A DNA stretch of 64,000 bases, from assembly GCA_963697895.1 (NCBI GenBank), contig OY969100.1, forward strand, positions 1,280,001 to 1,344,000. Direction: 5' to 3'. Positions 1,475-19,851 of the stretch are shown here, in pieces. A model generated the notes under the pieces. The model was not told where the DNA came from. It saw only the letters and a list, made by a program, of their open reading frames with translations, and ran no database searches. Each line of letters opens with the position of its first letter. The stretch's first letter is position 1. A program made the position numbers and the translations under genes. The stretch is from an uncultured Methanomicrobiales archaeon. Its GTDB lineage: Archaea; Halobacteriota; Methanomicrobia; Methanomicrobiales; Methanospirillaceae.

Positions 1475-1972
1475 TCAGGATCGGTCGGTGGGGCTGAACC
1501 GGTCATCGGATATCACCCGGGCTGCACCGTCCGATCTTTTAGTCATCCATCCGATCTTCTCCTCCGGGAATGAATCGAAATCCGGGATATACGGTTTGAT
1601 ATCGAGAACCGGGGTACCGTCCAGCATATCCACATCCATGACCCGGAGGAGGGAACCCTCTATTCCGGTCAGACGTATAATGGAGATCCCGATGGGATTC
1701 GGGCGGCTGGGTGCCCGGGTGGCGAAGAGTCCGCGGGGTTGGGTATCAAGAAACGGAATCACCCGGAGGGACCATTTACGGGACCGGTGAAAATGGTACA
1801 GCACGATAATACGGGAAAACCCCTCCAGATCGTCGAGCGCAGGAATAAATTGAGGCTCTATCTCTATCTCTCCGGGTATTCCCCGCGCTCCGGTGGGTTG
1901 TATAGGCATTTTCCCACTATCAGTGTAAGGAGTGTGTATAATCCCGATAGGTATGTACTCAATGGGATCCAT
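1475..1972 (-). CDS. tsaA: tRNA m6t6A37 methyltransferase TrmO (TsaA/UPF0066)
   Basis: PIGIIHTP, GLFATRAPSRPNPIG, DMLDGTPVLDIKPY motifs. Confidence 0.9.
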   Translation of the reverse strand: MDPIEYIPIGIIHTPYTDSGKMPIQPTGARGIPGEIEIEPQFIPALDDLEGFSRIIVLYHFHRSRKWSLRVIPFLDTQPRGLFATRAPSRPNPIGISIIRLTGIEGSLLRVMDVDMLDGTPVLDIKPYIPDFDSFPEEKIGWMTKRSDGAARVISDDRFSPTDRS

Positions 1973-2125
1973 GGGGAACGATGGAGCATCGGGGAAAAAA
2001 AACCTATAGGATATGGTCTTACCGCACGACCGCGGTTTTGATTGAAAAAGAGAACCGGGGTGAATGGATCATCGTTGGAAAGGGCCGGGAATAAAACCGG
2101 TTAAAATTTTTGATGTGTTTGAACC

Positions 2126-2377
2126 TTATCTCCGCCCGACCAGATCCTCGTGTTTCTTGATGATCCGGCTTGTCTCCGGGCAGTCGATCAAAACGACGTC
2201 AAAACCCAGGGAATCGTCTCCGTTCTCCTCAAGCCGGAAGACGACATTATTGCACCGGTGGAGGGCGGTGAGCATCCGGTCACGAGGAAACCGGGTCCAT
2301 TTCTGGATCTGAGTAGCGGAGACGCTATCCTGTTTATGAAGCGGGAAATATAACACGATCTTTTCAACATCGTCCAT
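2126..2377 (-). CDS. hypothetical 83-aa protein, possible winged-helix fold
   Basis: ATG preceded by an AT-rich promoter-like stretch; VSATQIQKWTRFPRDRMLTALHR has HTH-like spacing. Confidence 0.5.
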   Translation of the reverse strand: MDDVEKIVLYFPLHKQDSVSATQIQKWTRFPRDRMLTALHRCNNVVFRLEENGDDSLGFDVVLIDCPETSRIIKKHEDLVGRR

Positions 2378-2528
2378 GTGTTATGAACTTTTATTAACCT
2401 GCATATAATCCCACCGGATTGAATTTTGAGGGGAATACCTGTGGAATACCCCAAAAATTGTCATTCCTCCTGTTTTTCCCTCTTACCGGAATCCGGCTCA
2501 TGAGGAGCATACGAGAATCTTCCCCCGA

Positions 2529-2559
2529 CCGGAAGTGGTTATCAGATCAGAACTTCCGG
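2529..2559 (-). terminator. inverted repeat just downstream of kdpD (terminator-like)
   Basis: ccggaagt-N15-acttccgg. Confidence 0.35.
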
Positions 2560-2597
2560 AGGGATACGGACTTCGATGTTGTTGCCGGGCTCCCCGG

Positions 2598-4583
2598 TTA
2601 TCCCCCGGCCTGTTTTGCGACAACATTCGCGTGGTGCACCCGTTCGAGGGCGATAGATGCCTGATTTGCAAATGCAATCAGGATCCTCGACTCCTCCGAG
2701 GTGATGATCCCATTTGGTTCCGTCGGCATCACCCCGAGGATCCCAAGCACCCTCCCGGAACTTTCGAGCGGGATATATCGGAGTCGCGAATCATGCAGGG
2801 TGTCGGTATCGTACCCTGCCATGACTCCGTGGGAATATGACCATGTCGCTACCGCAATCTCCTTCGCATCGAGCCGGAGGTTAGGGCTTACAGAATGTTC
2901 AACCAGGTGGTCGGCCTGATCCGGGAGGAGGAATGTGCTTTCCCACTGGAATATCTCGCGAATATCATTTTTAACTGCCTTGATGATCGCGTCTTCATCC
3001 ACGGCTGCCGCCAGTTCCTGTGATAAGGCAAAGAGCGTCCCTGTCTCCTTTTCACGTATCTCCGCCGCTTCGGCATGTTCGCGGGTCCGGGCGACGAGGA
3101 AACTGATAACGGCACCGACCAGAATCAACCCAAGAATGGAGATGATATACTCGATATCGTTCACCCTGAAGGTAAAATAGGGAGGAATAAAAAAGAAATC
3201 ATAGGCAAGTACCCCGACAACTGCGGTCATGATTGCCGGTCTCAATCCCCAGAAGAATGCCGCAACTACAACGGCGAGCAGGTACAGAATGATCAGGTTG
3301 GCCGGGGAGATGACAGATTTCAAAAACCAGCCGATGAACGTGATCAGGGCGATAAGCGCAAGGCTGTAGAGATAACCCCGCGGAGGTGATGCCGGGAGGA
3401 GCGGTTCCATTTTGCCGGGTTTTTCCGGTGTTTTCTCCGAACTGCTGATCACATATACATCGATGGTGCCGCTGTCATGGATGAGCTGATCGACGACGGA
3501 ACCGAATAAAAATTCCTGCCACCGGGGGCGTAATGTCTTGCCGATGATAATTCTCGTGATATTATGTTTCCGTGCATACTCGATCGCCGTTTGTGCGACA
3601 TTGATCCCGAATATTGTGACCGCTGTCCCGCCCAGTTTCTCCGCCAGCTGGAGCGATCGCCAGACCTGCTCTTTTGCTCCCTTCGCGAGCCGTTGGTGTG
3701 AAGGAGTCTCGACATAGATCGCAGTCCAGTTGGCATTCATCCGATCCGCCTGTCGGCGTGCTGTCCGTACGAGCCGCTCGGAGAGCGGGCTCGGGCTAAC
3801 ACAGACTAGGATACTTTCCCCTGCCGGCCATGGTCCGGGGATTGCACGGGTCTGCATATAGGCCAGCATCTGATCGTCAACGCGTTCTGCGGCACGCCTG
3901 AGGGTGATTTCCCGTAATGCATACAGATTCCCCTCGTTGAAAAACTGCTCAATGGCACGGGCTGCCAGTTCCGGAACATAGATCTTTCCTTCTTTCAGCC
4001 GCTGCAGGAGTTCGGGAGGAGCAAGGTCGACGATCTCGATCTCTGTCGCTTCGTCTATAACCCCGTCAGGAATGGTCTCCCGGACTATCACCCCGGTAAT
4101 TTGCGCGATCACATCATTGAGGCTCTCGAGGTGCTGTACATTCAGGGTACTGTAGATATCAATCCCTGCATCGAGGAGTTCTTCGACGTCCTGATACCGT
4201 TTCAGGTGACGCGATCCCGGAGCATTGGTATGGGCCAGTTCATCAACGAGAACAAGGTCGGGTTGGATGGCGAGGATGGCGTCGAGATCCATCTCCTCCA
4301 GGCTAACCCCTTTGTACTCCATCTTTTTCCGGGGGATGATGGTGAGCCCCTTGAGGAGGACTTCTGTCTCCGGTCTCCCGTGTGTCTCCACGTATCCGAT
4401 CTGGACGTCTATACCCTCTTTTTTCCGCAGGTGTGCCGCCATCAGCATCTCGTAAGTCTTACCGACCCCCGCGACATATCCGAGAAATATCTTTAATTTA
4501 CCCCGGTGCTTCTGACGTTCTTCTCCCGACACCCGTGCAAGGAGAAGATCCGGATCCGGTCTGTTATCAGATTCCAATCCCAC
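2598..4583 (-). CDS. kdpD: KdpD-like sensor (KdpD/Walker-A domain, USP, 4-TM DUF4118, GAF) lacking HisKA/HATPase
   Basis: RPDPDLLL, GKLKIFLGYVAGVGKTY, DELAHTN, KRYQDVEELL; ends at ...ALERVHHANVVAKQAGG* with no H-box; GTG start inferred. Confidence 0.9.
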   Translation of the reverse strand: MGLESDNRPDPDLLLARVSGEERQKHRGKLKIFLGYVAGVGKTYEMLMAAHLRKKEGIDVQIGYVETHGRPETEVLLKGLTIIPRKKMEYKGVSLEEMDLDAILAIQPDLVLVDELAHTNAPGSRHLKRYQDVEELLDAGIDIYSTLNVQHLESLNDVIAQITGVIVRETIPDGVIDEATEIEIVDLAPPELLQRLKEGKIYVPELAARAIEQFFNEGNLYALREITLRRAAERVDDQMLAYMQTRAIPGPWPAGESILVCVSPSPLSERLVRTARRQADRMNANWTAIYVETPSHQRLAKGAKEQVWRSLQLAEKLGGTAVTIFGINVAQTAIEYARKHNITRIIIGKTLRPRWQEFLFGSVVDQLIHDSGTIDVYVISSSEKTPEKPGKMEPLLPASPPRGYLYSLALIALITFIGWFLKSVISPANLIILYLLAVVVAAFFWGLRPAIMTAVVGVLAYDFFFIPPYFTFRVNDIEYIISILGLILVGAVISFLVARTREHAEAAEIREKETGTLFALSQELAAAVDEDAIIKAVKNDIREIFQWESTFLLPDQADHLVEHSVSPNLRLDAKEIAVATWSYSHGVMAGYDTDTLHDSRLRYIPLESSGRVLGILGVMPTEPNGIITSEESRILIAFANQASIALERVHHANVVAKQAGG

Positions 4584-4590
4584 GGTGAGT

Positions 4591-6692
4591 TCACGCCCCC
4601 AGTGCAACGAGGAACATATCAATCAGTTTTATTCCGATGAACGGGACAATGATTCCCCCGATACCATAGATAAGGATATTATTTCTCAGTGCTTCTTCTG
4701 CGGTCATCGGACGATACTTTACCCCATGTAATGCGAGGGGAATTAAAATAACGATGATAAGGGCATTGAAGATCACCGCGGAGAGGATTGCATTTTGAAG
4801 CCCGAGGATATTCAGGGCTGCGAGTGCCGGATACGTGGAGATGAACGCAGCGGGGATGATTGCAAAATACTTCGCAAGATCGTTTGCGATGGAGAATGTG
4901 GTAAGCGAGCCTCTTGTCATGAGGAGCTGCTTTCCGATCTCCACGATCTCGATCAGTTTTGTCGGGTTGCTGTCGAGATCGATCATATTCGCCGCTTCCC
5001 GTGCAGGTTGCGTTCCCGTGTTCATTGCAACCGCGACATCCGCCTGGGCGAGTGCGGGAGCATCGTTGGTACCGTCCCCGGTCATGGCAACCATCCGTCC
5101 ACCTGACTGGTAGTCCCGGATCATCCGCAGTTTGCTCTCCGGAGTGGCCTCAGCGAGAAAATCATCCACCCCTGCCTCGGCGGCGATGGTTGCCGCAGTG
5201 AGCCGGTTGTCCCCGGTGATCATCACGGTCTTGATCCCCATCCTCCGCAACTGGGTGAACCGTTCTTTCATCCCACCCTTTATGACGTCTTTCAGATGGA
5301 CAACCCCAAGAGCCTTCCCATCCTTCGTCACAACTAGCGGAGTCCCGCCCGATCTGGCGATGGCGTCCACCTGCGCATTCAGCTGGGCAGAGACATCTCT
5401 GCCGCTCGCGTTCATCTGCGAAAATACCACATCTGAAGCCCCCTTCCGGATCTGAGTGGCGCCTATGTCCACTCCGCTCATCCGGGTCTGGCTGGAAAAG
5501 GGCATGAACCGCATCTCAGGACTGGATTCTGAAGCTCCCACGGTCCTCCCCCGTAGACCGTACCGCTCCTTGACCAGTACGACAATACTCCGGCCTTCCG
5601 GGGTCTCATCCGCAAGAGAGGCCAGCTGTGACGTTTCTGCAAGTTCATTAATATCTGTCCCGTCGACCGGGATCAATTCTACCGCCTGGCGGTTCCCGAG
5701 CGTGATGGTGCCGGTTTTATCAAGGAGGAGGACATCCACATCTCCCGCTGCCTCGATTGCCCGCCCGGACGTGGTAATGACATTGCGTCTGATAAGCCGG
5801 TCCATTCCTGCGATCCCGATGGCGCTGAGGAGCCCCCCGATGGTCGTCGGGGCAAGGCACACGAGGAGCGCAATGAGCACCGTCACGGTAATCGTCTGTC
5901 CGGCGCCCTCTGCCATCACGCTGTAAGAGGAGAATGCCCAGAGCGTTGCGCAGACCACGATAAAGATCGCGGTGAGCCCGATCAGGAGAATATTGAGCGC
6001 AATTTCGTTGGGGGTTTTCTGTCGCTTTGCTCCTTCGACAAGGGAGATCATGTGGTCGAGGAATCCTTCACCCGGGTTCGCGGTCGTCCTGACGATGAGC
6101 CAGTCTGACAGGATCACCGTCCCCCCCGTTACAGCACTCCGCTCACCGCCCGATTCCCGGATGACCGGGGCACTTTCGCCGGTGATCGCGCTCTCGTTCA
6201 CGGATGCAATCCCTTCCACTACCTCGCCATCGACCGGGATGATATCTCCTGCCTTAACCGTGAATAAATCTGATTTCCGGAGGGTTGAAGAAGGAACCAC
6301 CCGGTATTCGGATGATGTCGGTTCGATGCCCTTCACCAGATTGTAGCCGGGGACGAGCTTTTTGCATCGGTATCCTGTCGCATCTTCCTGAGTGATTCGG
6401 CCTGGGCCTTTCCCCGTCCCTCTGCAAGCGCTTCAGCAAAATTGGCAAAGAGCACAGTGAACCAGAGCCAGATGGAAATTGCGCCGATAAAACCTGCCGG
6501 AGCCTCGCCCTGCCCGAGAAGTGCCTGCAGCCAGAATATCGTAGTGAGTGCCGCTCCGATCTCCACGACGAACATCACCACATTGCGGACCATGTTTCTG
6601 GGGTCCAGTTTCAGGACAGAGTCGAGAATTGCACGTTTGTAGAGGGCGGACTGATGCGTGCCCGGATTTTTCATATCGCTGTGTTCAGACAT
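4591..6692 (-). CDS. kdpB: K+-transporting P-type ATPase subunit B; split into two ORFs by a 1-bp deletion at ~6359-6363 (probable sequencing error)
   Basis: [41 protein letters not shown] all present; adding one A restores [17 protein letters not shown] across the junction. Confidence 0.92.
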
Positions 6693-9114
6693 GGATCATC
6701 CCCCCTCCCGTCCCGATCAGATATTCCACGATGGGACCGAGGGCGAGCGCCGGGATAAAACTAAGGACGCCGATGATCAACACAACGAAGACGAGCCAGA
6801 TGATGAAGAGGGGCCGGTGATCATTGACCGTGCTCTCGCTGACCGGAACGATCTTTTTAAGAGCCATAGATCCGGCAAGGGCAAGGACTATGACTGCGAT
6901 GGCATACCGCCCGATCAGCATCGCGATTGCAGTCGAGATGTTATAAAAGAGGCTGTTTGCCGAGAGCCCCGCAAAAGCGCTGCCATTGTTCTGGGCCGGC
7001 GATGTAAATGCATACAGGACCTCGGAAAACCCGTGTGGTCCGGGATTGAAGATTGCGGCTCTTCCCGGTTCGGTCATAACGGCGATCGCGGTGCCGATGA
7101 GGATAATAAATATCGGTATCAGGATAATGAGTGTGGATAACTTCATCTCATACGGCTCGATCTTCTTCCCGAGATATTCCGGGGTCCGCCCGACCATCAG
7201 ACCGGCAATAAACATTGCGATGATGGCGAATACGATCATCGTGTACAACCCGGAACCGACACCGCCAAAGACAACCTCCCCCATCTGCATCATCAGCAGC
7301 TGGGCGAATCCTCCGAGTGGCATGAAGGAATCATGCATCGAGTTGACTGCACCGCATGATGTTGCGGTGGTCGAGATAGAGAACAAAGCGGATACCGGTA
7401 TGCCAAACCGGACCTCCTTTCCTTCCATGTTGCCACCCGGCTGAAACATGCCGGGGGTCTGATCGATGCCCAGAGGCGGAAATGCCGGGTTGCCACCCAG
7501 TTCGGACCATACGGCGAGTCCGAGGATCGGGATGAATATCACTATCATGGCGATCAGGAGGGCGATCCCTTTTCTCGCCGATCCGACCATCGTTCCGAAC
7601 ATAAAACAGAGACACACCGGGATCAGAAGAAGTGCAAATAACTCGATGAAGTTTGAAAATGGGGTTGGATTTTCGAACGGATGAGCGGAGTTGACGTTGA
7701 AGAATCCGCCGCCGTTCGTACCCAGTACTTTGATCGCAACCTCCGAGGCAGCAGGCCCGAGCGGGATCCGCTGGTCCGTGATGAGCGCTCCGGCGCTGTC
7801 CTTCACCGGATCGAGCAATGGTACCGTAACTGGCCCGCCGAATGTCTGGACGGTCCCCTGGGATACGAGGACCAGAGCGATGATCAGACAGATGGGCAGG
7901 AGAATGAACACACTCCGCACGAGTAGCACCCAGAAATTTCCGATCCGGTCTGTCGATCTCCGGGAGAGCCCGTAAATAAGTGCAACAAGGACTGCCATTC
8001 CGGTCGCTGCAGAGACAAAATTCTGTACCGTGAGGCCGATCATCTGGGTCAGGTAGCTCAGGGTTGTCTCCCCCGCATATGCCTGCCAGTTCGTATTCGT
8101 CGCAAAACTGACAGCCGTGTTGAGGGAGAGATCCCAGGCAACCGGGCCGGTTCCGGTCGGATTGAGCGGGAGGAGGAACTGGATCTCCTGCAAAATAAAA
8201 ACAATGACGATACCGAGGGTATTGAAGAGGAGCATCGCAACTGCAAACGCCTTCCAGTCCATCTCCTGGTCGGACCGTATACCGGATATACGGTAAAACC
8301 ATTCTTCGACCGGTCGGATTACGGGTGTGAGAATCGTCCGGTCCCCGGAATAGACACGTGCCATGAACCTGCCGAGAGGGATGATGGTTAACGCGAGGAT
8401 GAATAAAAACAGGAGAAGCGTGAGCCAGTCCGTAACCTTCATTCCAAAGAACATGGTTTGTTCATTCGCCGTTTGTTCTGCAGCCGTTCCTGCCGGTGGT
8501 GCCGTGATACGATTCGCACTTAGATCATCGAGTGCGAGGTTCAGCATGAGCACATTTACCCTGGATTCGCCAAAAATTCCGAATTGGGGGGGTTGAATAT
8601 GTTGATCGACGAGCCCTCGCAGATCCTGCTCGCTCATGTTTCTCTCCCGCGCAACGCGGGATACCTGGTAATATGCTGCTGCCACACTGATGTCAGGGTC
8701 GAGCCCGCTCGCGGAACTGGTCACCAGATCGACCGGGATCGGCTGTTGATTCGCGGGATCGGCAGCATGGAGCGCCTCGACCCGGGATTCGACCGCATTG
8801 ATGAGCGCCGGATTCGTCGGACCGAGGTTGGACCCGGTAGAAAGACTGGCGTTATCGGGATAGGGGGAGGTTGCGGAGGGCCGTCCCCAGAAATAGCCGG
8901 GCGATTCAAAGGGCTGCCCGATCAGGGCTGAACCGACAACATTCCCCTCGCGTTCGATAAAGTTCCCGTTTGCCTGGACGGGAAAGAGTGCCTGGGCAAT
9001 GCCGGTAACGATCAGCGGATACACCAGGCCCGTGACGATGGTCAATAATAAGAAGACCGTGAACGCAGGTCTGAGCTGCCGCCAGAGCAGCGACGGGATC
9101 GGTTCTATTGCCAT
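6685..9114 (-). CDS. kdpA: KdpC-KdpA fusion protein
   Basis: N-terminal ~200 aa is KdpC ([53 protein letters not shown]); a ~25-aa linker then leads in frame to KdpA ([52 protein letters not shown]). Confidence 0.9.
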
Positions 9115-9349
9115 TGAAAGACCGCCTTCGACGTAACGCATCACGCGCTCCTGACCGCAATTCAGGGGAGAGTGTGTTACTAGCAAGAGCTACTGTCAAA
9201 AGATTATATATTCGTTGGTATACGTCTCCTTCTACCCGAGATAAATGAGTACATTCATTCCGGTATGTGAGCCAAAATATCAATCCCTTGTCCTGATTAA
9301 CCCGCATACGATCAGGCTTATCCGTTCCCCGGTCTACCTTCCTGAAGCC

Positions 9350-10981
9350 ATGAATTTCCTTGAATTTTCCCGGATCTGCCAGCAGCTGGAGGGAATATCA
9401 GGCCGCCTGGAGATGATCGATCTGATCAGCCAGGTCCTGCCCGGGCTTTCCGAGGATGAACTCCCGATATTTGTCCGGTTTGTCATGGGACGTATCTTTC
9501 CTGACTGGAGCCCGCTGAACCTCGGAATCGGCCCGAACCTCCTCTACGAAGGGATTGCCTACGTTGCGGGAAAAAGGAAAGAGGAAGTGGTCACCGCGAT
9601 AAACCGCACAGGCGACGTCGGGGCAGCGGTGGAGGAACTCCTTGGCAGCAAGGAGCAGACATCGTTCTTCTCTGAAGATCTTACCCTAATTGATGTCTAT
9701 CGGGAATTTGAGGCGATCGCAGAGACCGGGGGGAAAAAATCGCAAAGAGAGAAGGTCCTCCTGGTCCGGAAACTCTTCTCGAATGCCGGGCCACTCGAGG
9801 GGAGGTATCTCTCCCGGATAATGATAGGGGATCTCCGGATCGGGGTCGGGGAGGGCAATGTCCGCGATGCGATCGTTAAGGCGTTCGCGGTAGACCCCTC
9901 TCTGGTCCAGCATGCATTCCAGGCTATGAACGACCTCGGTGAAGTCGCCCGGATCGCACGGAAAGGAACTTTTGCCCTCGCGGAGGTGGAGATCCGGCCG
10001 TTCCATCCGGTGAAGATGATGCTTGCCCAGCAGGGAACGATCGAGGGTGCGATCCAGGATAACGGGGAGGTTGCCGCGGAGTTCAAGTACGACGGGAGCC
10101 GGTTCCAGTTCCATCGGGTCGGGGGACGCATAGCACTCTATAGTCGCAAGCTCGAAGATGTCACCCACGCTCTCCCGGATATCATCGAGCAGCTCCTGGC
10201 GGCGACCACGCATGACGTGATCCTGGACGGGGAGGCCCTTGCCACCAAGGACGGTCGTCCGATGCCGTTCCAGCAGGTGCTTCGTCGTTTCCGGCGGAAA
10301 TACGGAGTGGATGAGATGAGAGAAGAGATCCGGCTCGTTCCGCATGTCTTCGATATCCTCTATCTGGACGGTAAAACACTGATCGATATGCCCCTTTCAG
10401 AACGGCGAAAATTCCTCGAGGGAGCGGTATCGGAACATGTGGCACCCCAGACGGTCAGCGCCGACCCTGCAGAGATCGATCGGCTCTACCAGGAGGCGCT
10501 TGATGCCGGTCATGAAGGACTGATGCTGAAGGTACCGTCTTCCCCCTATACTCCCGGGGTCCGGGGAAAGAACTGGATCAAGATAAAACCCGAGGTGGAC
10601 ACCCTCGACCTGGCCGTCATCGGGGCCGACTGGGGGGAGGGAAAAAGGGCACATTATTTTGGTTCGTTCCTCCTCGCATGCCAGGACCGGGGCGAGCTCG
10701 TGCCGCTCTCCAAGGTGGCAACGGGGTTCTCCGACGAGCAACTCGCCGAGATTTATGATCTGCTCAAAGATCATGTGATCGCAGAATCAGGAAAAGAGGT
10801 GAAATTTGAGCCGTTCATGGTCGTTGAAGTCGGGTATTCGGAGCTCCAGAAGAGCCCGAACTACCCTGCCGGGTTTGCCCTCCGGTTTCCCCGCTTCATC
10901 CGGATCCGGGATGATAAGGGGATCGACGAGATCGAGACCCTTGAGAGCATCCAGGAGCGGTACCGGAGGCAGTCCAAATAA
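9350..10981 (+). CDS. lig: ATP-dependent DNA ligase
   Basis: [10 protein letters not shown] (motif I), [35 protein letters not shown]. Confidence 0.96.
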
Positions 10982-11137
10982 CTACTCATATCTCTTCGCC
11001 CGGAGGATGCGATCCGGACCTCCCTGAGATCGTCTTCCCTGATTTCGAGTGAACTGTCCGAAGAGTACTCCATCCCGGCAGGAAACCCATTTTATAGAGA
11101 GAAATCCTTGCAGACACTATTCCTTTCCGGTGCCATT

Positions 11138-12169
11138 CTACTCCCGTGTATCGGTGATGACTCTCACCCTGTCTCCGAGGACGGTGAGCAAATCCTCCAC
11201 GAACTCATCCCATTGTACCGGCCGATCATCTATCCGGTGGGCAATCTCTGCCCCGATGTCGTCATCGCGCTCGTTCAGGACCTGCACGACAACTGACCCT
11301 GGTGCATAGGCCGGCTCCAGGATATGGTCGGCATCGCCGTCAACGATCCCGAAGACCGGGATTCCCCGGTGTGCGGTGATATGTCCGGAGACCGCTGTTG
11401 TATCGTCCCCGACGCTGACAATGCCGCAGACTCCTTCATCCATCCTCAGGTAGAGTTCATGACCACAGTGATCGATCAGGAGAACCCTGCCATTCCGTCT
11501 GATCCGGTCATTGAAGACGGGGGCCCGCATACGGATCATTCCGCTCTTGCACCAGGCACGGGCCAGATCACAGGACCCTGCACGCGACACCTTTTCGAGA
11601 CCGTGGGGTTTTGGGATAAGTCCGTGTACCGGAATCAGTGAACCGTTATGCGAACTCAGGCCGACTTCCGTGCCTGTGGCCCATCCGATCACGAGCCCGT
11701 TCACAAATACGGGTTCACCCGGGAGACACCCCCTTATGATACGTTCCGATGAACAGGACGCCGCGGGTGCCGAAACTGCCTCCATGGGAAAGCCGGTCAG
11801 GTTCGAGAGCTCTTCCGAAAGCGCCGGATCTCCACCGTTCCAGCGGTAGATAATCCGGCTTGCACACTCAACGTGGACAAGGCCCCGGTCCCCGAGCCTT
11901 CCGGCAATGATCCCGCCGAATATCCTGCCAGACTCACCCGTCTTCGCATGGTTTGCGAGGAAGACATTTCCTTCTAGTTCTCGGATCACAATACTGGGAG
12001 GTTTATCACCAAATTCGCAGGGGATCCCTGATTCCTCTGCGGCGGTTTGCGCCATCACCCCGGCAACGACAATCCGCCCGGGGTTGACTTCCGCCTGGAG
12101 GCGGCAGACATCTCCCCGATCAAAGACATCGGGGCCATGAACGACCATGACAGTCCCGGTTTTCATCAA
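11138..12169 (-). CDS. DUF2117 family methanogen protein
   Basis: VVHGPDVFD, AGVMAQTAAEESG, NHAKT, IRGCLPGEPVFVNG, VGDDTT, GIVDGD. Confidence 0.75.
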   Translation of the reverse strand: MMKTGTVMVVHGPDVFDRGDVCRLQAEVNPGRIVVAGVMAQTAAEESGIPCEFGDKPPSIVIRELEGNVFLANHAKTGESGRIFGGIIAGRLGDRGLVHVECASRIIYRWNGGDPALSEELSNLTGFPMEAVSAPAASCSSERIIRGCLPGEPVFVNGLVIGWATGTEVGLSSHNGSLIPVHGLIPKPHGLEKVSRAGSCDLARAWCKSGMIRMRAPVFNDRIRRNGRVLLIDHCGHELYLRMDEGVCGIVSVGDDTTAVSGHITAHRGIPVFGIVDGDADHILEPAYAPGSVVVQVLNERDDDIGAEIAHRIDDRPVQWDEFVEDLLTVLGDRVRVITDTRE

Positions 12170-12277
12170 TCTCCTCCAATCGCAGTTATTCCTCCAGCAT
12201 CGCTCGTACGCCTCTCTTTACTAGTAGAAGTACCTGTGTCCGGGTCCCCACTGTTCTTGCTGAACGGACAGTCCAGG

Positions 12278-13636
12278 TCAGGATCGGTTGTAATCATCAC
12301 TGAAACGGACGATATCGTCTTCCTCCAGGTACTCCCCGATCTGCACTTCGATCACCTCAAGCGGGATCTTCCCTGAATTTCCGAGCCGGTGCTGCATTCC
12401 TGCAGGTACAAAGGTGCTCTCGCCCTGCCGGAGCCGGAGTGCCCGGTCTTCAAGAATTACGTCCGCCGTTCCCGATACCACGATCCAGTGTTCGCTCCGG
12501 TGATGGTGCATCTGGAGGGAGAGCTTTTTACCCGGTTTGACCGTCACCCGCTTGATACGGAAGAAACCCGATCGTTCCAGTTCCGTGTAGGAACCCCAGG
12601 GGCGGTGCACCTGCCGGTGGAAGTCGGCGATCGGATCACCGCTTTCGCGGAACTTCTTCACGAGCTCGTTCACCCGCTCCGCATCCCGCATATCCGCAAT
12701 AAGAAGAGCATCCCCCGTGTCAACGACGACGGTGTCATGAATACCGATGAGGGCGGCCTGTTTCCCCGGAGCACAGACGAAGTTCCCCCGGGAATCAACG
12801 TACTCCGCTTTGCCGACATTCGCTCCCTCCTCACCCGCATGGAAGTCGTACCATGCCCGGAATGTACCGAGATCGGTCCATCGGGCATGGAGCGGCACGA
12901 CCGCAACTCGTGAAGAATATTCGAGGAGACCGTAATCGACGGAGACAGAGGGGAGCGCAGGAAAATCGAGCGTATCATCCGAGCAGAACCTCCGGTATAA
13001 CTCCGGCTGGTACTGTTTGAGCTCAGTGAAGAAGATCCCGGTCGAGAAGAGAAAAATCCCGCTGTTCCAGAGATATCCGGCATCCACATACTTCGCAGCG
13101 GTCTCGCGGTCTGGTTTTTCCCGGAATTCCCTGACCAGAAACCCCGGTAATACGGGCTCACCCGGGGCGATATAGCCGTAACCGGTCTCGGGCGAAACCG
13201 GGGAAACCCCGAACGTGATCAGATACCGGTCAGCGAGCACTGCAGCTTCCTCTATCGTAGGGAGTGCGGATGCATCGAGTTCGTGATCGCTCGGGAAGAT
13301 GGCGATCGTACTTTCGCCAAAGAGTTCCCGGATCTCCCGCATCGCCCAGGTGATCGCAGGGAGGGTATTCCTGCCGACCGGCTCCCGGAGTATCATACGG
13401 TCTTCTATCCGGGTTCCCAGTTCCTCCACCTGGTTTTTCACCAGGTACTGGTGCACCTCGTTGGTCACCACAAGTATGCTGTCGGGAGGAGAGATCCCCA
13501 GCGCACGCCGGTATGTTGCCTGGAAGAGAGATTCCCTGTTGATTTTGAGAAACTGTTTCGGGTAGTGCGTCCGGGAAAGAGGCCAGAGCCGGGTACCGGT
13601 GCCGCCCGCCAGGATGACCGATCGGATTGTTTTCAT
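12278..13636 (-). CDS. manC: mannose-1-phosphate guanylyltransferase / mannose-6-phosphate isomerase
   Basis: ILAGGTGTRLWPLSR, EPVGRNT, PETGYGYI, WNSG, C-terminal cupin RPWG...HHHRSEHW. Confidence 0.95.
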   Translation of the reverse strand: MKTIRSVILAGGTGTRLWPLSRTHYPKQFLKINRESLFQATYRRALGISPPDSILVVTNEVHQYLVKNQVEELGTRIEDRMILREPVGRNTLPAITWAMREIRELFGESTIAIFPSDHELDASALPTIEEAAVLADRYLITFGVSPVSPETGYGYIAPGEPVLPGFLVREFREKPDRETAAKYVDAGYLWNSGIFLFSTGIFFTELKQYQPELYRRFCSDDTLDFPALPSVSVDYGLLEYSSRVAVVPLHARWTDLGTFRAWYDFHAGEEGANVGKAEYVDSRGNFVCAPGKQAALIGIHDTVVVDTGDALLIADMRDAERVNELVKKFRESGDPIADFHRQVHRPWGSYTELERSGFFRIKRVTVKPGKKLSLQMHHHRSEHWIVVSGTADVILEDRALRLRQGESTFVPAGMQHRLGNSGKIPLEVIEVQIGEYLEEDDIVRFSDDYNRS

Positions 13637-13810
13637 TCACGCTCTGTATGCGTTATGGGACCTCGTTCGTCTTATCCATTGCTCTCACAACAAGCGCGAT
13701 AATTACCGGCATAGGATTCGTCACGAATTCCAAACCACTGTACGGAATGTTTTTATTCGTGATCGCTATTTATTGTTGAGCGGGAAGCAAAGGGGAATGG
13801 AGTTCATGCA

Positions 13811-14503
13811 ATGGGTTTGATCAGCGAGGAACCGCGGTACCGGGACAGGATCAGGGTATTTTCAGATCGGTACGAAGCCGGGAAACAGCTTGCCCTCTCG
13901 ATTTCGCGGCTGCAGTTCGCGGATGCGGTTGTCTGGGCGATCCCTGCCGGCGGAGTACCCATCGGGGTCGAACTTGCCCTCAGGCTCCGGGTACCCCTGA
14001 TGCTTGCGGTGGTGAGAAAGGTACAAATCCCCTGGAATACCGAGGCGGGATTCGGAGCGGTGACCTGGGACGAACGGGTCCATCTCAACGACCGTCTCCT
14101 GTCGGGACTCGGGTTATCGCCTGTAGAGATCGAAACCGCGATCGAAAGGGCAAAACGCAGTGTGAAGGAGCGGCTCACCCTTTTCGGAGCGGGTAAGTCG
14201 TTCCCTGATCTTACGGGGAAGTGCGCGATACTCGTAGACGACGGGCTTGCGTCGGGATATACCATGCTTGCTGCTGTGGATGGTGTAAAAGCCCTCTTTC
14301 CAACTGAAGTTATGGTGGCCGTGCCGACCGGATCGGCCGATGCAGTAAAAAGGGTTGCAGAGGTTGCGGATAGGGTAATTTGTCTCAATATCAGGACCAG
14401 TTACCGGTTTGCTGTTGCCGAAGCGTACGAAGAGTGGCATGATCTCTCCGATGCAGAGGTGCTCGTACAGCTTGGTCGTGTCCGGGACGCCGGCCTGTAC
14501 TGA
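13811..14503 (+). CDS. phosphoribosyltransferase family protein
   Basis: FSDRYEAG, AIPAGGVPIG, ILVDDGLASGYTM PRPP-binding motif. Confidence 0.88.
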   Translation: MGLISEEPRYRDRIRVFSDRYEAGKQLALSISRLQFADAVVWAIPAGGVPIGVELALRLRVPLMLAVVRKVQIPWNTEAGFGAVTWDERVHLNDRLLSGLGLSPVEIETAIERAKRSVKERLTLFGAGKSFPDLTGKCAILVDDGLASGYTMLAAVDGVKALFPTEVMVAVPTGSADAVKRVAEVADRVICLNIRTSYRFAVAEAYEEWHDLSDAEVLVQLGRVRDAGLY

Positions 14504-14604
14504 ACCCTGAAGAGAGGGAAGACGGTTTCGCACCAGAACTTCACATATTCTTTCATTGCACTAAAATAACAAGATATTGAGCCCGGTTTATAAGTCTGCA
14601 CATT

Positions 14605-15138
14605 TTATGAAAAAACGTGCTGGATCCTGTCCATGATAGTTGCAGCAGTCGTTGAGCGGTTCCTGAGCGTTACTTCGAACAGAATGACATCCGGGCGTTC
14701 TTTTATGGATTCGATGAATTCATCCCCTTTCCGGGCGATCGTGGCAATGCACACGATTTCAGAATCCAGGATCCAGATGATCTCCTGCCGGAACAGGGCT
14801 GACAGGCACTCCATCTTTCCGATTTCATCGATGATGATGAGCCGGTTTCCCGGATCACGGAGGCGCCGGTTCCCGAAAAAGGCCTCGAAAGCCCCGAGAT
14901 CGACCGCATATTTTCCCACCCGGTACGGGCTCCGCACGGAGATGTGCGAGAGCACCCGTCGTTCCCCATCCAGGCCGACCAGCGCAAAGCCGACCCGCGG
15001 ACCTGTTTCCCGTATCTCCTCGGTGAAAAATCCCACCGGCCGGAGCGACTCCAGCTCGCCGGCGAGGTGACGGATGATCGTCGTTTTGCCGACCCCCGGC
15101 ACTCCGGTAATAAGGATATTCTTCTGCTTTGTCTCCAT
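14605..15138 (-). CDS. NTPase (THEP1/NTPase_1 family)
   Basis: ITGVPGVGKTT, GFFTEEIRE, RVGKYAV, IIIDEIGKME. Confidence 0.9.
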   Translation of the reverse strand: METKQKNILITGVPGVGKTTIIRHLAGELESLRPVGFFTEEIRETGPRVGFALVGLDGERRVLSHISVRSPYRVGKYAVDLGAFEAFFGNRRLRDPGNRLIIIDEIGKMECLSALFRQEIIWILDSEIVCIATIARKGDEFIESIKERPDVILFEVTLRNRSTTAATIMDRIQHVFS

Positions 15139-15167
15139 ATGTGTGCGGTCCTTTCCCGGATCTCAAT

Positions 15168-15599
15168 TCATCTCATCATGATCTGTATTGCGGTAGGATA
15201 CGCTCGCATGATGGCATAGACGATCGGTTTTCCCACCCAGAGTTTCCCCCCTTCCATATTCCGGAGCGGTGAAATCTCCGCGAGCTCCTGGAGGGCGAAG
15301 ACCGCATACTCATCGTTCAGGAAACAACTGTCACTGACCGTCGAATCAAAGAAGAAGAGGATCGGGAGTTTGAGACGGGAGTGCAGTTTTTTTGGGAGCT
15401 CTCTCCCGAGCAACCGGATTATATCCCGGGAAAAACGGTACTCCTTTCCTCCCTTCGTCATCGCATGAGGATCTTCCTCCTCGAGGAGGCGGGCAAGCGT
15501 CTTTCGCTCCGTAACGATCCCGTCATTGATCTTCCCCATCTCGAGCTGCATCCACCTCATGAGAACGGTTTCGTCGCTGATGGAAGGACGGCCGGGCAT
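15168..15599 (-). CDS. DUF61 (UPF0216) family protein
   Basis: RKTLARLLEEEDP...LKLPILF archaeal DUF61 pattern. Confidence 0.75.
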   Translation of the reverse strand: MPGRPSISDETVLMRWMQLEMGKINDGIVTERKTLARLLEEEDPHAMTKGGKEYRFSRDIIRLLGRELPKKLHSRLKLPILFFFDSTVSDSCFLNDEYAVFALQELAEISPLRNMEGGKLWVGKPIVYAIMRAYPTAIQIMMR

Positions 15600-15793
15600 C
15601 TGGATCACCATCACAGAATGGGATCGGTTCCCATAAATCTTTGGCATTCCGGCAAGGATCCACCCGGACGTACAATGATTGTATAACGGTTTATTCTGTT
15701 GTCATAAAGTTTCAGCGTCGTTCTCATTCCCGTTGGATTGACCCGTTGAGTCGTTCCATATCTTGATAATGCCGGAACAACGAGAGAAGAGTA

Positions 15794-17452
15794 ATGATCA
15801 CTGCTCTCTTTGTCGATCCGGATTCCCCGATAGAACAGAGGATTATTCGGAGGGTGGAAGATCAGGGAGACATCGGCGTTGTACCGGTAAACGCAATTAC
15901 CGATGCACGGGAACGTCTGCGCCGGGAAGAATATAGTGTTCTGGTCTGGTTTGGCCGGGCAGGCGACACGCGGGGGATCGAATTCATCAAAGAACTGCAA
16001 TCCATCCCCATCCGGATACCCTCTGTCCTGATCACGGATCGGATGGTTAACGCAATCGCATCCATCGCTTTGAATGCAGGTCTGTCCTGTTATCTCTGGG
16101 ATAGTTCTGCAGAACACTTTCCCGATCTCCTTGCATCAGTCATCAGAAATCAGGTCCTCCAGTGGCAGATCACCGAGAGGCTGCGGAAGGACAATGCCCT
16201 GATGCGGGTACTCCATGATGCATCTCCGCTCGCTACCTGTGTCGTGAAGGATCATCGCATCATATGGATGAACGAACTGATGCCCCGGATACTTGGGTAT
16301 CAGGAATGTGACCTGATCGGGATCGATCCGCTCCGGCTTATCCCCGATGAGGCGGAGCACCGCCGCATAGATGAAGCGTTATATGAGGGGCCAAAGGAAG
16401 GGGAATGGCGATCTGTTGAGTGCCATCTCAAGCGGCAGGATAATTCCCTGTTGCACGTTCATATCCTGGCGAAACTTCTGGATCCCGACGACCCATCCGG
16501 TGGCTTCATGATAATCGGCCAGGATATCACCGCGTTCACCCGGATGAAAGACCTGCTCAGGCAGAGCGAGGTGAGATATCAGCATCTGATGGACAGCGCA
16601 AACAGCATTGTTCTCCGGATTGATACCGGGGGATTCATACGGTTTGTGAACAGGTTCGGCGAGGAGTTCTTCGGGTTTCCCGCAGGCGAACTGATCGGCA
16701 AACACGTCGTCGGGACGATTATTCCCCGGAAATCGCGGAGTGGCCGGGATCTTTCGGCCATGATACGGGATGTGATGAACAACCCTGCAGAATATGAGGT
16801 AAACGTCAATGAAAATATGAAGAGGGACGGGGAACGGGTCTGGATTGCGTGGACAAACAAGGCCATACGGGACGAACAGGGGAAGATCCTGGAGATGCTC
16901 GCCATAGGGACCGATATCACCGACCGGCAACTGGATGTAGCCGATATCCAGATCTCAACCGCCCCGTGGACAAAAAAAGTCATCGCGGATACCGATATCG
17001 ACGAGCCGGTCTTTTCTGCAGTGTATTCTCTGTCTCTCGAGATATCCAAGGAAGGACGGGAAGGAAAACACATCGGGACGACATTTCTTCTCGGGGACGC
17101 GAAGAATGTGCTGGCGAAATCGACCCAGCTGATCCTGAACCCGTTCGAAGGGCACCCGGCCGCATCGAAGATGATAACAAACCCGGAGATCCGGGAAACG
17201 CTGAAGGAATTATCCCCGATAGACGGTGCTTTTGTCATATGCGGGGATGGAGTGGTCGAGGCGGCCGGGAGGTACATCACGATAGATACAAGCAGGGCGA
17301 CCATCCCGCGGGGGCTCGGTACCCGCCATGCATCCGTCGCAGGGATCACGCAGGAAACGAAAGCGATCGGGATCGTTGTTTCTCAGAGCGGTGGCCGGAT
17401 ATCCATTTTCAAGGACGGGCGGATATTCCGGGTGATACGCGTCAACGAATGA
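15794..17452 (+). CDS. pseudo-receiver + PAS + PAS + DisA_N diadenylate cyclase
   Basis: two PAS/PAC units ending in QDIT and TDIT; DacZ-type catalytic domain EGREGKHIGT...SPIDGAF...GLGTRHAS...VSQSGG. Confidence 0.88.
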   Translation: MITALFVDPDSPIEQRIIRRVEDQGDIGVVPVNAITDARERLRREEYSVLVWFGRAGDTRGIEFIKELQSIPIRIPSVLITDRMVNAIASIALNAGLSCYLWDSSAEHFPDLLASVIRNQVLQWQITERLRKDNALMRVLHDASPLATCVVKDHRIIWMNELMPRILGYQECDLIGIDPLRLIPDEAEHRRIDEALYEGPKEGEWRSVECHLKRQDNSLLHVHILAKLLDPDDPSGGFMIIGQDITAFTRMKDLLRQSEVRYQHLMDSANSIVLRIDTGGFIRFVNRFGEEFFGFPAGELIGKHVVGTIIPRKSRSGRDLSAMIRDVMNNPAEYEVNVNENMKRDGERVWIAWTNKAIRDEQGKILEMLAIGTDITDRQLDVADIQISTAPWTKKVIADTDIDEPVFSAVYSLSLEISKEGREGKHIGTTFLLGDAKNVLAKSTQLILNPFEGHPAASKMITNPEIRETLKELSPIDGAFVICGDGVVEAAGRYITIDTSRATIPRGLGTRHASVAGITQETKAIGIVVSQSGGRISIFKDGRIFRVIRVNE

Positions 17453-17558
17453 GTGCTCATAGGGAATCTGCTCTCTGCATCCGGATAACGATTCCCGGAT
17501 TTACGGGCATCGGCAAGATTCCGTGAATTCATTCAATGGGGGAAAAGGTAAAGGAGAT

Positions 17559-18350: not shown

Positions 18351-18626
18351 ACCGGGGATTTGATCCCATCGAAGGGGTTGTCGTATTCTGTTCGCATAAA
18401 GGTACGTATACGAAACAGGTGGTACAGAAAGAAACCCCCGTACATTCGCGACCTTATTTGTGCGAAGAGGGCGCTATGGAAGGGTAATCCGGGTAATCAA
18501 TGTGAATAAAAATGGGGCCAATAACACGATCTAACGAGATCCCCCTTTATACCAGGCATGAAAGGGAGAGAATTTATTTCAAAATGTAATGTTTTTTTCA
18601 ATCCATAAATTACCCCTCTGAAAACA

Positions 18627-19829: not shown

Positions 19830-19851
19830 TCAAATCCCCTCCATTATAGAA

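What the first reader, a model, noticed from the sequence alone, without database searches (positions are those of the whole stretch)
2598..17452. Candidate archaeal c-di-AMP to serine-kinase to Kdp pump circuit (kinase-less KdpD plus a nearby sensory diadenylate cyclase)
Seen: the kdp operon ends in a KdpD that stops right after GAF. I found no H-box downstream and there is no kdpE in the window. It retains the Walker-A KdpD domain (GYVAGVGKT) and a USP domain reading SPS-x20-WTAIY. KdpB keeps its TGES serine (6172-6183). About 6.7 kb from the operon start is a pseudoREC-PAS-PAS-DisA_N cyclase. Established (recalled from the literature, not re-checked): the S. aureus KdpD USP domain binds c-di-AMP through SxS-x20-FTAxY, and the E. 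coli KdpD N-terminal domain is an atypical Ser kinase that inhibits KdpB by phosphorylating the TGES serine. Inference: Kdp here may be controlled purely post-translationally, with PAS-sensed signals setting c-di-AMP that tunes KdpD Ser-kinase activity on KdpB. I know of no description of such a circuit in methanogens. The physical linkage is loose because lig, manC and other genes intervene.
Basis: partly seen in the sequence, partly recalled or inferred. Interest (0 to 1): 0.82.

Follow-up and report, generated by a model that had tools for sequence, protein, structure and literature searches.

The report
Kinase-less KdpD potassium-pump locus in methanogen
This methanogen's potassium-pump operon ends in a KdpD sensor that has lost its histidine-kinase half but keeps its serine-kinase half, a class already catalogued in related methanogens, and the nearby c-di-AMP synthase gene looks like a chance neighbour.

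Summary
The kdp cluster (2598-9186, minus strand) ends in a 674-aa KdpD with KdpD_N, Usp, DUF4118 and GAF domains and no DHp/CA. No KdpE-type regulator or separate KdpD kinase half was found in the 2.09-Mb genome. A REC-like/PAS/PAS/DAC gene lies 6.6 kb away.

Three points change the reading:
- **Already published.** Silberberg 2024 (PMC11018627) shows c-di-AMP stimulating a short KdpD serine kinase that phosphorylates KdpB. Its supplementary table lists Methanoregula and Methanosphaerula KdpDs as "Truncated DHpCA domain, His kinase no, no KdpE", each with a cyclase accession.
- **No conserved link to the cyclase.** A DAC domain is found in 60 of 61 related genomes and KdpD in 19 of 61. No DAC shares a contig with kdpD in any of 18 relatives. 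The USP "SxS" occurs in 2 of 19 KdpDs, and the Asn249 equivalent is never Asn.
- **kdpB is frameshifted here.** The shift is in an A5 run that is A6 in 4 of 4 metagenome contigs, and kdpB is in one frame in 18 of 18 relatives. It may be an assembly error.

Best reading: a serine-kinase-only KdpD, probably gated by its TM/GAF domains. A side observation is a conserved KdpC-KdpA fusion.

The parts
2598..4622 (-). kdpD, histidine-kinase-less (674 aa from TTG; ends about 10 residues after the GAF domain)
   Evidence: Pfam KdpD, Usp, DUF4118 and GAF_3 only. The alignment with E. coli KdpD stops near E. coli residue 650; H673 and the DHp/CA domains are absent.
3879..4508 (-). KdpD N-terminal domain (residues 39-248), the putative atypical Ser kinase: Walker A G48-x5-GKT56, Walker B D127/E128, R208
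   Evidence: E 4.4e-96; 2r8r, E 8.7e-82; E. coli G30, G36, K37, T38, D109, E110, R190 conserved in 19 of 19; W39 is Tyr.
3471..3815 (-). Usp domain (residues 270-384) with C274-V-S276-P-S278, S281 at the Asn249 position, and W299-T-A-I-Y303
   Evidence: (7ji4, E 8.8e-11). It is 85% identical to the orthologue in L055, as conserved as the kinase domain.
3060..3374 (-). DUF4118 four-helix membrane domain (residues 417-521)
   Evidence: E 5.6e-29; 2ksf.
2640..2984 (-). GAF domain (residues 547-661), last domain of the protein
   Evidence: GAF_3, E 7e-9; 4qpr, the E. coli KdpD GAF structure.
4591..6336 (-). kdpB, C-terminal 581-aa piece (A-domain TGES, DKTGT, rest of the P-type ATPase)
   Evidence: 68% identity to E. 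coli KdpB residues 121-680.
6333..6692 (-). kdpB, N-terminal 119-aa piece, in another frame
   Evidence: 49% identity to E. coli KdpB residues 10-107.
6359..6363 (-). A5 homopolymer where the kdpB frame breaks (one base short)
   Evidence: reading both frames; contigs of 4 of 4 metagenome runs carry one more T behind 6358; the N and C parts are in one frame in 18 of 18 relatives.
6172..6183 (-). TGES codons of KdpB (E. coli E161/S162 equivalent)
6685..9114 (-). kdpC-kdpA fusion gene (809 aa from ATG 9114; the ORF is open from TTG 9186): KdpC, then a linker of about 25 hydrophilic residues, then KdpA
   Evidence: KdpC 6.7e-75, KdpA 1.5e-235 in one ORF.. (single HSP in 9 relatives). (the best 120 hits all carry PF02669 and PF03814 and most are about 800 aa long).
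15794..17452 (+). REC-like/PAS/PAS/DAC diadenylate cyclase (552 aa). One of three DAC genes in the genome, and probably not specific to kdp.
   Evidence: PAS x2; DAC 3.5e-20. (Response_reg 20.4 bits, below the cut-off). (CdaA structures; DGA present, RHR reads RHA)..

Best explanation
The locus is a Kdp potassium-pump operon of the kind found in Methanoregulaceae-like methanogens: kdpC-A fusion, kdpB, kdpD. Its KdpD has lost the histidine-kinase (DHp/CA) module and has no KdpE partner. It most likely works only as the atypical serine kinase described for E. coli KdpD. The N-terminal Walker A/B domain would phosphorylate the Ser of TGES in the KdpB A domain and shut the pump off when K+ is sufficient. 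Because the membrane (DUF4118) and GAF domains are retained, the signal is most likely K+ itself, sensed as in full-length KdpD. The strongly conserved USP domain may add a second, unidentified nucleotide or protein input. The REC-like/PAS/PAS/DAC gene 6.6 kb away is the widespread cyclase type of this family. It lies near kdp in this genome by chance. In this assembly kdpB carries a one-base deletion in an A-run, which is either an assembly error or a very recent inactivation. Shown here: domain content, residue conservation, genome-wide absence of KdpE and of a kinase half, distribution and synteny. Inferred: kinase activity, the K+ input, pump shut-off.
For: Architecture. The truncation lies at the GAF/DHp boundary in 19 of 19 KdpDs of the order, including the window. 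Catalytic residues mapped on E. coli are conserved in 19 of 19. KdpB is 68% identical to E. coli KdpB with TGES and DKTGT intact. No Trans_reg_C domain in the genome. There is no E. coli KdpE-like hit and no second TM/GAF/DHpCA protein. The only other DUF4118-like hit is a membrane protein followed by a repeat region that by eye looks HEAT-like, with no histidine-kinase motifs seen. None of the 10 HATPase_c genes lies in the window. Published biochemistry (PMC11018627; passages and section 8 read): the E. coli KdpD N-terminal domain alone phosphorylates KdpB S162; K+ stimulates the serine kinase of full-length KdpD in SMALPs; the class 'truncated DHpCA' is reported for Archaea. The supplementary table lists Methanoregula boonei, Methanoregula sp. 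and Methanosphaerula palustris in that class, without KdpE. Against a dedicated cyclase: DAC in 60 of 61 genomes versus KdpD in 19 of 61, and 0 of 18 relatives with a DAC on the kdpD contig. In the five single-contig or two-contig genomes the nearest DAC is more than 400 kb away. Full-length cyclase homologues occur in 10 kdpD-bearing and 9 kdpD-lacking relatives, and this is the only DAC match in 8 relatives.
Against: No member of the truncated, TM/GAF-bearing class has been tested biochemically; the paper tested E. coli full-length KdpD and the D. geothermalis KdpD/Usp form. K+ sensing by these TM/GAF domains is assumed from E. coli, to which they are only 38% and 29% identical. The USP domain is as conserved among close orthologues as the kinase domain (85% versus 86%; TM 57%, GAF 56%). 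That argues for a real USP input that this explanation leaves unnamed, and c-di-AMP is a candidate. kdpB is frameshifted in this assembly, so in this strain the system may be dead. W39 of E. coli is Tyr here.
Confidence: 0.6

Rival explanations
1. One reading: c-di-AMP, made by the neighbouring PAS-sensing cyclase (or any of the three DACs), binds the KdpD USP domain and tunes the serine kinase that inhibits KdpB.
For: The mechanism exists in bacteria: c-di-AMP stimulates phosphorylation of KdpB by D. geothermalis KdpD (PMC11018627). The window's USP matches 4 of the 5 positions of the S. aureus consensus: C274, S276, S278 and Y303. The USP domain is under strong constraint (85% identity to L055). 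All these methanogens make a DAC. The motif is not needed for a response: D. geothermalis KdpD lacks it, by eye, from the supplementary table.
Against: The Asn249 equivalent, reported as essential for c-di-AMP binding (PMC8214093), is Ser here and Ser or Ala in 19 of 19. The first Ser of SxS is Gly in 10 of 10 close orthologues, and SxS occurs in only 2 of 19, so it is not a conserved feature of the family. W-x-A-x-Y is shared with E. coli KdpD, and Dutta 2021 note that E. coli does not use c-di-AMP signalling. The paper assigns c-di-AMP control to forms that lack TM/GAF, and this one has them. There is no conserved linkage or co-distribution with any DAC. No c-di-AMP riboswitch or other Rfam match in 1-20000.
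Confidence: 0.2
2. The kdp system is inactive in this strain: kdpB is a real pseudogene (one-base deletion), and the regulator has nothing to regulate.
For: The frameshift lies in the A5 run at 6359-6363. The same site is A6 in contigs of 4 of 4 metagenome runs that are 96-97% identical. kdpB is in one frame in 18 of 18 relatives.
Against: Apart from this base, KdpB is 68% identical to E. coli KdpB with all motifs intact, so any inactivation is very recent. The assembly shows other broken genes: an SDH-type protease is split near 50860 at a short C run, and a REC-PAS / PAS-DAC paralogue is split. Completeness is 93.85%, against 97-99% for the other single-contig or two-contig relatives. This pattern is what uncorrected indel errors would give. 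No run holding this genome's own reads was found: the best holder shares 0.44 of the words.
Confidence: 0.3
3. The kinase-less KdpD still controls transcription, by passing its signal to an unrelated archaeal regulator or to one of the genome's other histidine kinases.
For: 10 HATPase_c genes exist elsewhere in the genome. From memory, not checked here: kdp is transcriptionally K+-regulated in Halobacterium salinarum without KdpDE.
Against: No partner is encoded in or next to the operon in the window. No OmpR-type output domain is found in the genome. Nothing in the KdpD sequence after the GAF domain could transmit a phosphoryl group.
Confidence: 0.08

Closest known systems
KdpD class 'Truncated DHpCA domain' of Silberberg et al. 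2024 (Nat Commun 15:3223, PMC11018627), listed there for Methanoregula boonei, Methanoregula sp. and Methanosphaerula palustris
   Same: Same domain order (KdpD_N, Usp, TM, GAF, then the end). Walker A/B present, no histidine kinase, no KdpE, and a diadenylate cyclase elsewhere in the genome.
   Different: Nothing essential. The window's protein is a further member, 60-73% identical to the relatives that share its kdpC-A fusion operon. It has SxS in the USP loop, which only one of the 18 relatives shares. No member of the class has been assayed.
E. coli KdpD (tandem serine/histidine kinase) with KdpFABC
   Same: The N-terminal domain is 59% identical with all mapped catalytic residues. KdpB is 68% identical with E161/S162. 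TM and GAF domains are present.
   Different: No DHp/CA, no H673, no KdpE. W39 is Tyr. KdpC is fused to KdpA and precedes it. No kdpF was seen (not searched systematically).
Deinococcus geothermalis short KdpD (KdpD_N + Usp), whose serine kinase is activated by c-di-AMP
   Same: Kinase-less, serine-kinase-only logic, in a DAC-bearing organism.
   Different: The D. geothermalis protein has no TM/GAF domains, so c-di-AMP is its only known input. The window's protein keeps TM/GAF.
S. aureus KdpD USP domain bound to c-di-AMP (PDB 7JI4; Dutta 2021, PMC8214093)
   Same: Same fold family (E 8.8e-11), aligned without gaps over 113 residues. 4 of the 5 consensus positions match.
   Different: Asn249 is Ser. 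Identity is about 29%, counted by eye on the alignment. The beta4-alpha4 stretch reads G-x12-G-S, which keeps part of the ATP-type USP glycine motif that the S. aureus domain lacks (read against the passages).
Diadenylate cyclases with sensory N-termini (CdaA, DisA, DacZ/CdaZ and others)
   Same: DAC domain with DGA.
   Different: The N-terminus is a degenerate receiver plus two PAS domains. The RHR motif reads RH-A/S/N-S, as in all 13 DAC sequences of this order that I looked at. The census of DAC architectures by Galperin 2023 was not held, so I cannot say whether this architecture is named there.

Membership tests
KdpD atypical serine kinase (N-terminal KdpD domain) | PF02702 KdpD domain | tested here: met
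   E 4.4e-96, full profile 1-210; 2r8r, E 8.7e-82.
KdpD atypical serine kinase (N-terminal KdpD domain) | Walker A G-x5-GKT (E. coli G30...G36 K37 T38) | tested here: met
   G48-YVAGV-G54 K55 T56, conserved in 19 of 19.
KdpD atypical serine kinase (N-terminal KdpD domain) | Walker B D109/E110 | tested here: met
   D127/E128, conserved in 19 of 19.
KdpD atypical serine kinase (N-terminal KdpD domain) | Adenine pair W39/R190 | tested here: inconclusive
   R208 is conserved in 19 of 19. W39 is Tyr in 19 of 19; it is aromatic, but its effect is unknown.
KdpD atypical serine kinase (N-terminal KdpD domain) | Substrate site E161-S162 (TGES) in KdpB | tested here: met
   However, kdpB is frameshifted upstream of this site in the assembly.
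KdpD atypical serine kinase (N-terminal KdpD domain) | Phosphorylates KdpB Ser | not testable with these tools
   Needs an in vitro kinase assay.
'Truncated DHpCA' KdpD class (Silberberg 2024) | TM and GAF kept, DHp/CA and the H-box absent | tested here: met
'Truncated DHpCA' KdpD class (Silberberg 2024) | No KdpE and no separate histidine-kinase chain in the genome | tested here: met
   Genome completeness is 93.85%, so absence is not absolute.
c-di-AMP-binding KdpD-USP (S. aureus type) | A/G/C at position 242, S244, S246 | tested here: met
   C274, S276, S278. S276 is Gly in 10 of 10 close orthologues.
c-di-AMP-binding KdpD-USP (S. aureus type) | Asn249 (contact with the outer phosphate; N249A loses c-di-AMP binding) | tested here: not met
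   Ser281 here; Ser or Ala in 19 of 19.
c-di-AMP-binding KdpD-USP (S. aureus type) | Tyr271 or Phe | tested here: met
   Y303. It is also present in E. coli KdpD, so it does not discriminate.
c-di-AMP-binding KdpD-USP (S. aureus type) | Binds c-di-AMP | not testable with these tools
   Needs DRaCALA, ITC or MST.
KdpFABC P-type ATPase complex | KdpA, KdpB and KdpC present and intact | tested here: inconclusive
   all three families are found. KdpC and KdpA are fused. kdpB has a one-base frameshift. kdpF was not found by eye in the 5' region and was not searched further.
Diadenylate cyclase (DAC, PF02457) | DAC domain with DGA and RHR motifs | tested here: inconclusive
   E 3.5e-20. DGA aligned to CdaA; RHR reads RHA. 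RH-x-S is the norm in 13 of 13 lineage DACs, including genomes where it is the only DAC.

The most novel reading that the evidence does not exclude
In Methanoregulaceae-type methanogens the kinase-less KdpD integrates two inputs. K+ is sensed through its TM/GAF domains. An adenine nucleotide, possibly c-di-AMP made by the family's principal REC-like/PAS/PAS cyclase, is sensed through a USP domain that is as conserved as the kinase domain but does not carry the S. aureus binding motif. This would be the first archaeal c-di-AMP to Ser-kinase to P-type-ATPase pathway. It would also be a new c-di-AMP binding mode in USP domains, acting on a pump whose KdpC and KdpA subunits are covalently fused.
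Probability: 0.2. Interest if true: 0.6.

Novelty: new member of a known kind. Interest (0 to 1): 0.28.

Why it matters
As filed, the finding adds little. The kinase-less archaeal KdpD, its lack of KdpE, its co-occurrence with a diadenylate cyclase and the c-di-AMP to serine kinase to KdpB mechanism are all in a 2024 paper and its supplementary table. What remains open and testable is which signal drives the serine kinase in the truncated class that keeps TM/GAF. No member has been assayed, and the USP domain is under strikingly strong constraint here. Two by-products may be of use. One is a naturally fused KdpC-KdpA subunit, conserved in hundreds of metagenomic proteins and annotated only as KdpA, which I did not find described in two literature searches. 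The other is the REC-like/PAS/PAS/DAC enzyme, which looks like the main c-di-AMP synthase of this methanogen family.

Tried and rejected
1. Complex prediction of the KdpB A-domain piece (alignment A2) with the KdpD N-terminal domain (alignment A1): no verdict (score 0.01, mark 0.32). It says nothing either way.

2. Sequencing runs: no RNA holder is listed, and no run holds more than 0.44 of the sampled words. The frameshift could only be compared with contigs from related populations.

3. Rfam over 1-20000 at E<=1: no match, so no ydaO-type c-di-AMP riboswitch or other known RNA at the kdp leader.

4. A look for a split KdpD histidine-kinase half. The only other DUF4118-like hit (C1:1759513) is a membrane protein followed by a repeat region that by eye looks HEAT-like; it was not scanned against Pfam, and I saw no histidine-kinase motifs.

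5. Conservation of the cyclase's neighbours: none of DUF61, NTPase or DUF169 is found within 1.5 kb of the cyclase homologue in the 10 full-length homologue loci (L060, L062-L070). The partial locus L061 was also searched and had none. There is therefore no conserved cyclase neighbourhood to interpret.

6. Programmed frameshifting at the kdpB A-run was considered and rejected. Relatives have one more A and a single frame, and A5 is short for slippage.

7. Using USP sequence similarity to choose between c-di-AMP binding and non-binding types. Identity is 35% to E. coli, and about 29% to both S. aureus and D. geothermalis by eye. This does not discriminate.

8. Galperin 2023 (PMC10127676) on DAC architectures is not held. 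Two literature searches for a KdpC-KdpA fusion returned no title on it; only the listings were seen.

9. Earlier scan notes: none on this genome.

Full report
**What is in the sequence.**

On the minus strand, ORFs run from 9186 down to 2598. Pfam gives the following.
- One 833-aa ORF (6685..9186) has a KdpC domain at residues 39-220 (E 6.7e-75) followed by a KdpA domain at 259-823 (E 1.5e-235).
- Two ORFs, 6333..6692 (119 aa) and 4591..6336 (581 aa; E1-E2_ATPase and Hydrolase), are together KdpB.
- A 674-aa ORF (2598..4622) has KdpD (39-248, E 4.4e-96), Usp (270-384), DUF4118 (417-521) and GAF_3 (547-661), and no HisKA or HATPase_c.

GYVAGVGKT is at residues 48-56. The two USP serines are S276 and S278, followed by 20 residues and then WTAIY at 299-303. 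TGES is at 6183..6172.

After six unrelated genes on both strands comes a 552-aa ORF at 15794..17452 (+). The intervening genes are DNA ligase, DUF2117, ManC, a phosphoribosyltransferase, an NTPase and DUF61. The 552-aa ORF has two PAS domains and a DAC domain (E 3.5e-20). Its N-terminus is a weak receiver match (20.4 bits, cut-off 30.2). By eye, the phospho-acceptor Asp position is not Asp.

*kdpB is broken.* Reading both frames, the N-terminal piece runs into a stop shortly after an A5 run at 6359-6363, and the rest of KdpB continues one frame over. One more A would give a continuous protein. The two pieces align to E. coli KdpB residues 10-107 (49% identity) and 121-680 (68% identity), with TGES and DKTGT intact.

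In 18 of 18 relatives that carry kdp, the two parts lie in one frame. I laid contigs from four metagenome runs of four studies on the site. They are 96-97% identical to the window, so they come from related populations and not from this genome. All four carry one extra T behind 6358.

The assembly has other broken genes.
- An SDH-type protease is split near 50860 at a short C run.
- A paralogue of the cyclase is split into REC-PAS and PAS-DAC ORFs.
- Completeness is 93.85% for a single 2.09-Mb contig, whereas the other single-contig or two-contig relatives score 97-99%.

I judge an assembly indel somewhat more likely than a real pseudogene. I could not settle this, because no run holding this genome's own reads was found.

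*kdpC and kdpA are one gene.* The likely start is ATG 9114, which gives 809 aa. The KdpC part is joined to KdpA by a linker of about 25 hydrophilic, Ala/Thr/Pro-rich residues with no extra hydrophobic helix.

**Is KdpD really kinase-less, and alone?**

Aligned with E. coli KdpD (fetched as L058), the protein ends at about E. coli residue 650, just after the GAF domain. H673 and the DHp/CA module have no counterpart.

In the whole genome I found:
- one KdpD domain;
- no OmpR-type Trans_reg_C domain;
- no tblastn hit to E. coli KdpE at E<=1e-3, and no second protein matching the TM/GAF part of KdpD.

The only other weak DUF4118 hit is a membrane protein followed by a repeat region that by eye looks HEAT-like, with no histidine-kinase motifs. 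None of the ten HATPase_c genes lies in the window. The caveat is that completeness is 93.85%.

**Is the serine-kinase site intact?**

I mapped the residues that Silberberg et al. showed to be needed for KdpB S162 phosphorylation (PMC11018627; passages read) onto the alignment. G30, G36, K37, T38, D109, E110 and R190 are conserved in the window and in all 18 relatives. W39 is Tyr in all 19. The N-terminal domain is 59% identical to that of E. coli. The inference that this KdpD can act as the atypical serine kinase is reasonable. It remains an inference.

**The lineage.**

I searched 61 genomes of the same order, counting the window's own. KdpD is present above the cut-off in 19. I fetched the 18 relatives' loci and found two operon types.
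- **Fusion type:** kdpC-A fusion, kdpB, kdpD, as in the window. Ten relatives have it, with KdpD 60-73% identical to the window's. The fusion is visible as one HSP in 9 of them and is cut by a contig end in the tenth.
- **Canonical type:** kdpA, kdpB, kdpC, kdpD. Eight relatives have it, with KdpD about 40% identical.

In all 18, KdpD ends within about 35 residues after the GAF domain. The kinase-less form is therefore the rule in this order and not a peculiarity of this genome. Sources that name the closest fusion proteins call them Methanoregulaceae or Methanoregula.

**Is the cyclase linked to kdp?**

No.
- A DAC domain is found in 60 of 61 genomes; the one without is 89% complete in 510 contigs. 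KdpD is found in only 19, so there is no co-distribution to speak of.
- In none of the 18 kdpD-bearing relatives is a DAC on the same contig as kdpD. In the five single-contig or two-contig genomes (G003, G004, G012, G014, G020) the nearest DAC is more than 400 kb away. By my reckoning from the contig lengths, about 10 of the 18 have enough flanking contig to be informative.
- Full-length homologues of the window's cyclase (38-42% identical over residues 1-548) occur in 19 relatives, 10 with kdpD and 9 without.
- In 8 relatives this is the only DAC match, so this architecture looks like the family's principal c-di-AMP synthase.
- The window's own genome has three DAC genes: this one, a split paralogue, and a signal-peptide/PKD-repeat/TM/DAC protein.
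- The cyclase's immediate neighbours are not conserved in the 10 full-length homologue loci checked.

The cyclase itself looks functional. DGA is present, and the RHR motif reads RH-x-S in all 13 DAC sequences of the lineage that I examined.

**Does the USP domain look like a c-di-AMP receptor?**

The evidence does not discriminate and leans against.
Phe267, Thr268 and Ala269 are not at the interface. N249 is reported as essential for binding c-di-AMP, and ATP-type USPs carry Ala, Ser or Thr there.
- On the alignment to the S. aureus structure 7JI4, the window has C, S, S, Ser and Y. That is four of five, with the specificity-determining Asn replaced by the ATP-type Ser.
- Across the order, the Asn position is Ser or Ala in 19 of 19. 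The first Ser is Gly in 10 of 10 close orthologues. SxS occurs in only 2 of 19. The match is thus peculiar to this genome and is not a conserved feature.
- The W-x-A-x-Y half is also present in E. coli KdpD. Dutta et al. note that E. coli does not use c-di-AMP signalling.
- On the other side, the D. geothermalis KdpD that responds to c-di-AMP lacks the whole motif by eye, and the S. elongatus protein has only the first Ser. Both sequences were read in the supplementary table. The motif therefore cannot exclude binding either.
- The USP domain is strikingly conserved among close orthologues: 85% identity to L055, against 86% for the kinase domain, 57% for TM and 56% for GAF. That argues it does something important.

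I put c-di-AMP input at about 0.2.

**What is already known.**

Silberberg et al. 2024 report four things relevant here.
- The KdpD N-terminal domain is an atypical serine kinase for KdpB S162.
- A short KdpD without kinase domains is stimulated by c-di-AMP, and most species with the short form have a diadenylate cyclase.
- K+ stimulates the serine kinase of full-length E. coli KdpD in a lipid environment.

Their supplementary table (file 4) lists Methanoregula boonei, a Methanoregula sp. and Methanosphaerula palustris. Each is recorded as "Truncated DHpCA domain, Walker AB yes, His kinase no", with no KdpE and with a diadenylate cyclase accession. What is not in print, as far as I saw, is any assay of the truncated class.

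**Most likely mechanism.**

This is a Kdp pump whose only dedicated regulator is a serine-kinase-only KdpD. When K+ is sufficient, the retained TM/GAF sensor would activate the N-terminal kinase. The kinase would then phosphorylate the TGES Ser of KdpB and stop the pump. The USP domain probably provides a second input of unknown identity.

Transcription may be constitutive or under an unknown archaeal regulator. The 5' region shows a TATA-like box, by eye, and no known RNA element.

The cyclase is a chance neighbour. My confidence in this reading is 0.6. The steps from kinase activity onward are inferred from the E. coli work.

**Side observation.**

The KdpC-KdpA fusion is conserved. A search with the first 300 residues found 579 proteins at E<=0.001. 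The best 120 all carry both Pfam domains, most are about 800 aa long (a few are shorter), and where named they are called only "KdpA".

From memory, not checked here: KdpC's soluble domain and KdpA's N-terminus both face outward in E. coli KdpFABC. A short hydrophilic linker would therefore be topologically consistent.

Two literature searches (listings only) showed no paper on such a fusion.

**Verdict.**

Noticed in passing
window 6685-9114 (-): KdpC is fused in frame to the N-terminus of KdpA (809 aa) through a hydrophilic linker of about 25 residues. The fusion is seen in 9 relatives. All of the best 120 of 579 database hits carry both domains, and where named they are annotated only as 'KdpA'. 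Two literature searches found no description of it.
   Followed up: partly
window 6359-6363 (-): A one-base deletion in an A-run splits kdpB. Related metagenome contigs (4 of 4 runs) and 18 of 18 relatives have the intact frame.
   Followed up: yes
window 50512-51400 (+), break near 50860: An SDH-type (ClpP-like) serine protease gene is split into two frames at a short C run. This is a second frameshifted gene in the window and suggests indel errors in the assembly, or gene decay.
   Followed up: partly
L001 216-1899 (G000:C1:248351-250034): A paralogue of the cyclase is split into a REC-PAS ORF and a PAS-DAC ORF (56% identical to the window's over residues 262-548). The break is not at a homopolymer. 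A similar two-ORF arrangement appears in relative G047, so it may be natural.
   Followed up: partly
L003 1480-3273 (G000:C1:980298-982091, -): The third DAC of the genome: signal peptide, three PKD repeats, one membrane helix, then a cytoplasmic DAC domain (597 aa). This is a cyclase with an extracellular sensor.
   Followed up: no
window 31705-37122 (+) and 41255-45886 (+): Two very long ORFs (1805 and 1543 aa) with no Pfam match at E<=1e-5.
   Followed up: no
L047 10557-11000; L049 2-352: In two relatives with the canonical kdpABCD operon, a DUF169 homologue (G020) or a TrmO homologue (G003) lies directly downstream of kdpD. In the window TrmO (1475..1972) is also downstream of kdpD, and DUF169 sits next to the cyclase. 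This is weak residual synteny of unknown meaning.
   Followed up: no
window 3471-3815 (-): The KdpD USP domain is as conserved among close orthologues as the kinase domain (85% vs 86%), while TM and GAF are 56-57%. Its beta4-alpha4 stretch reads G-x12-G-S, which is partly like the ATP-type USP glycine motif.
   Followed up: partly
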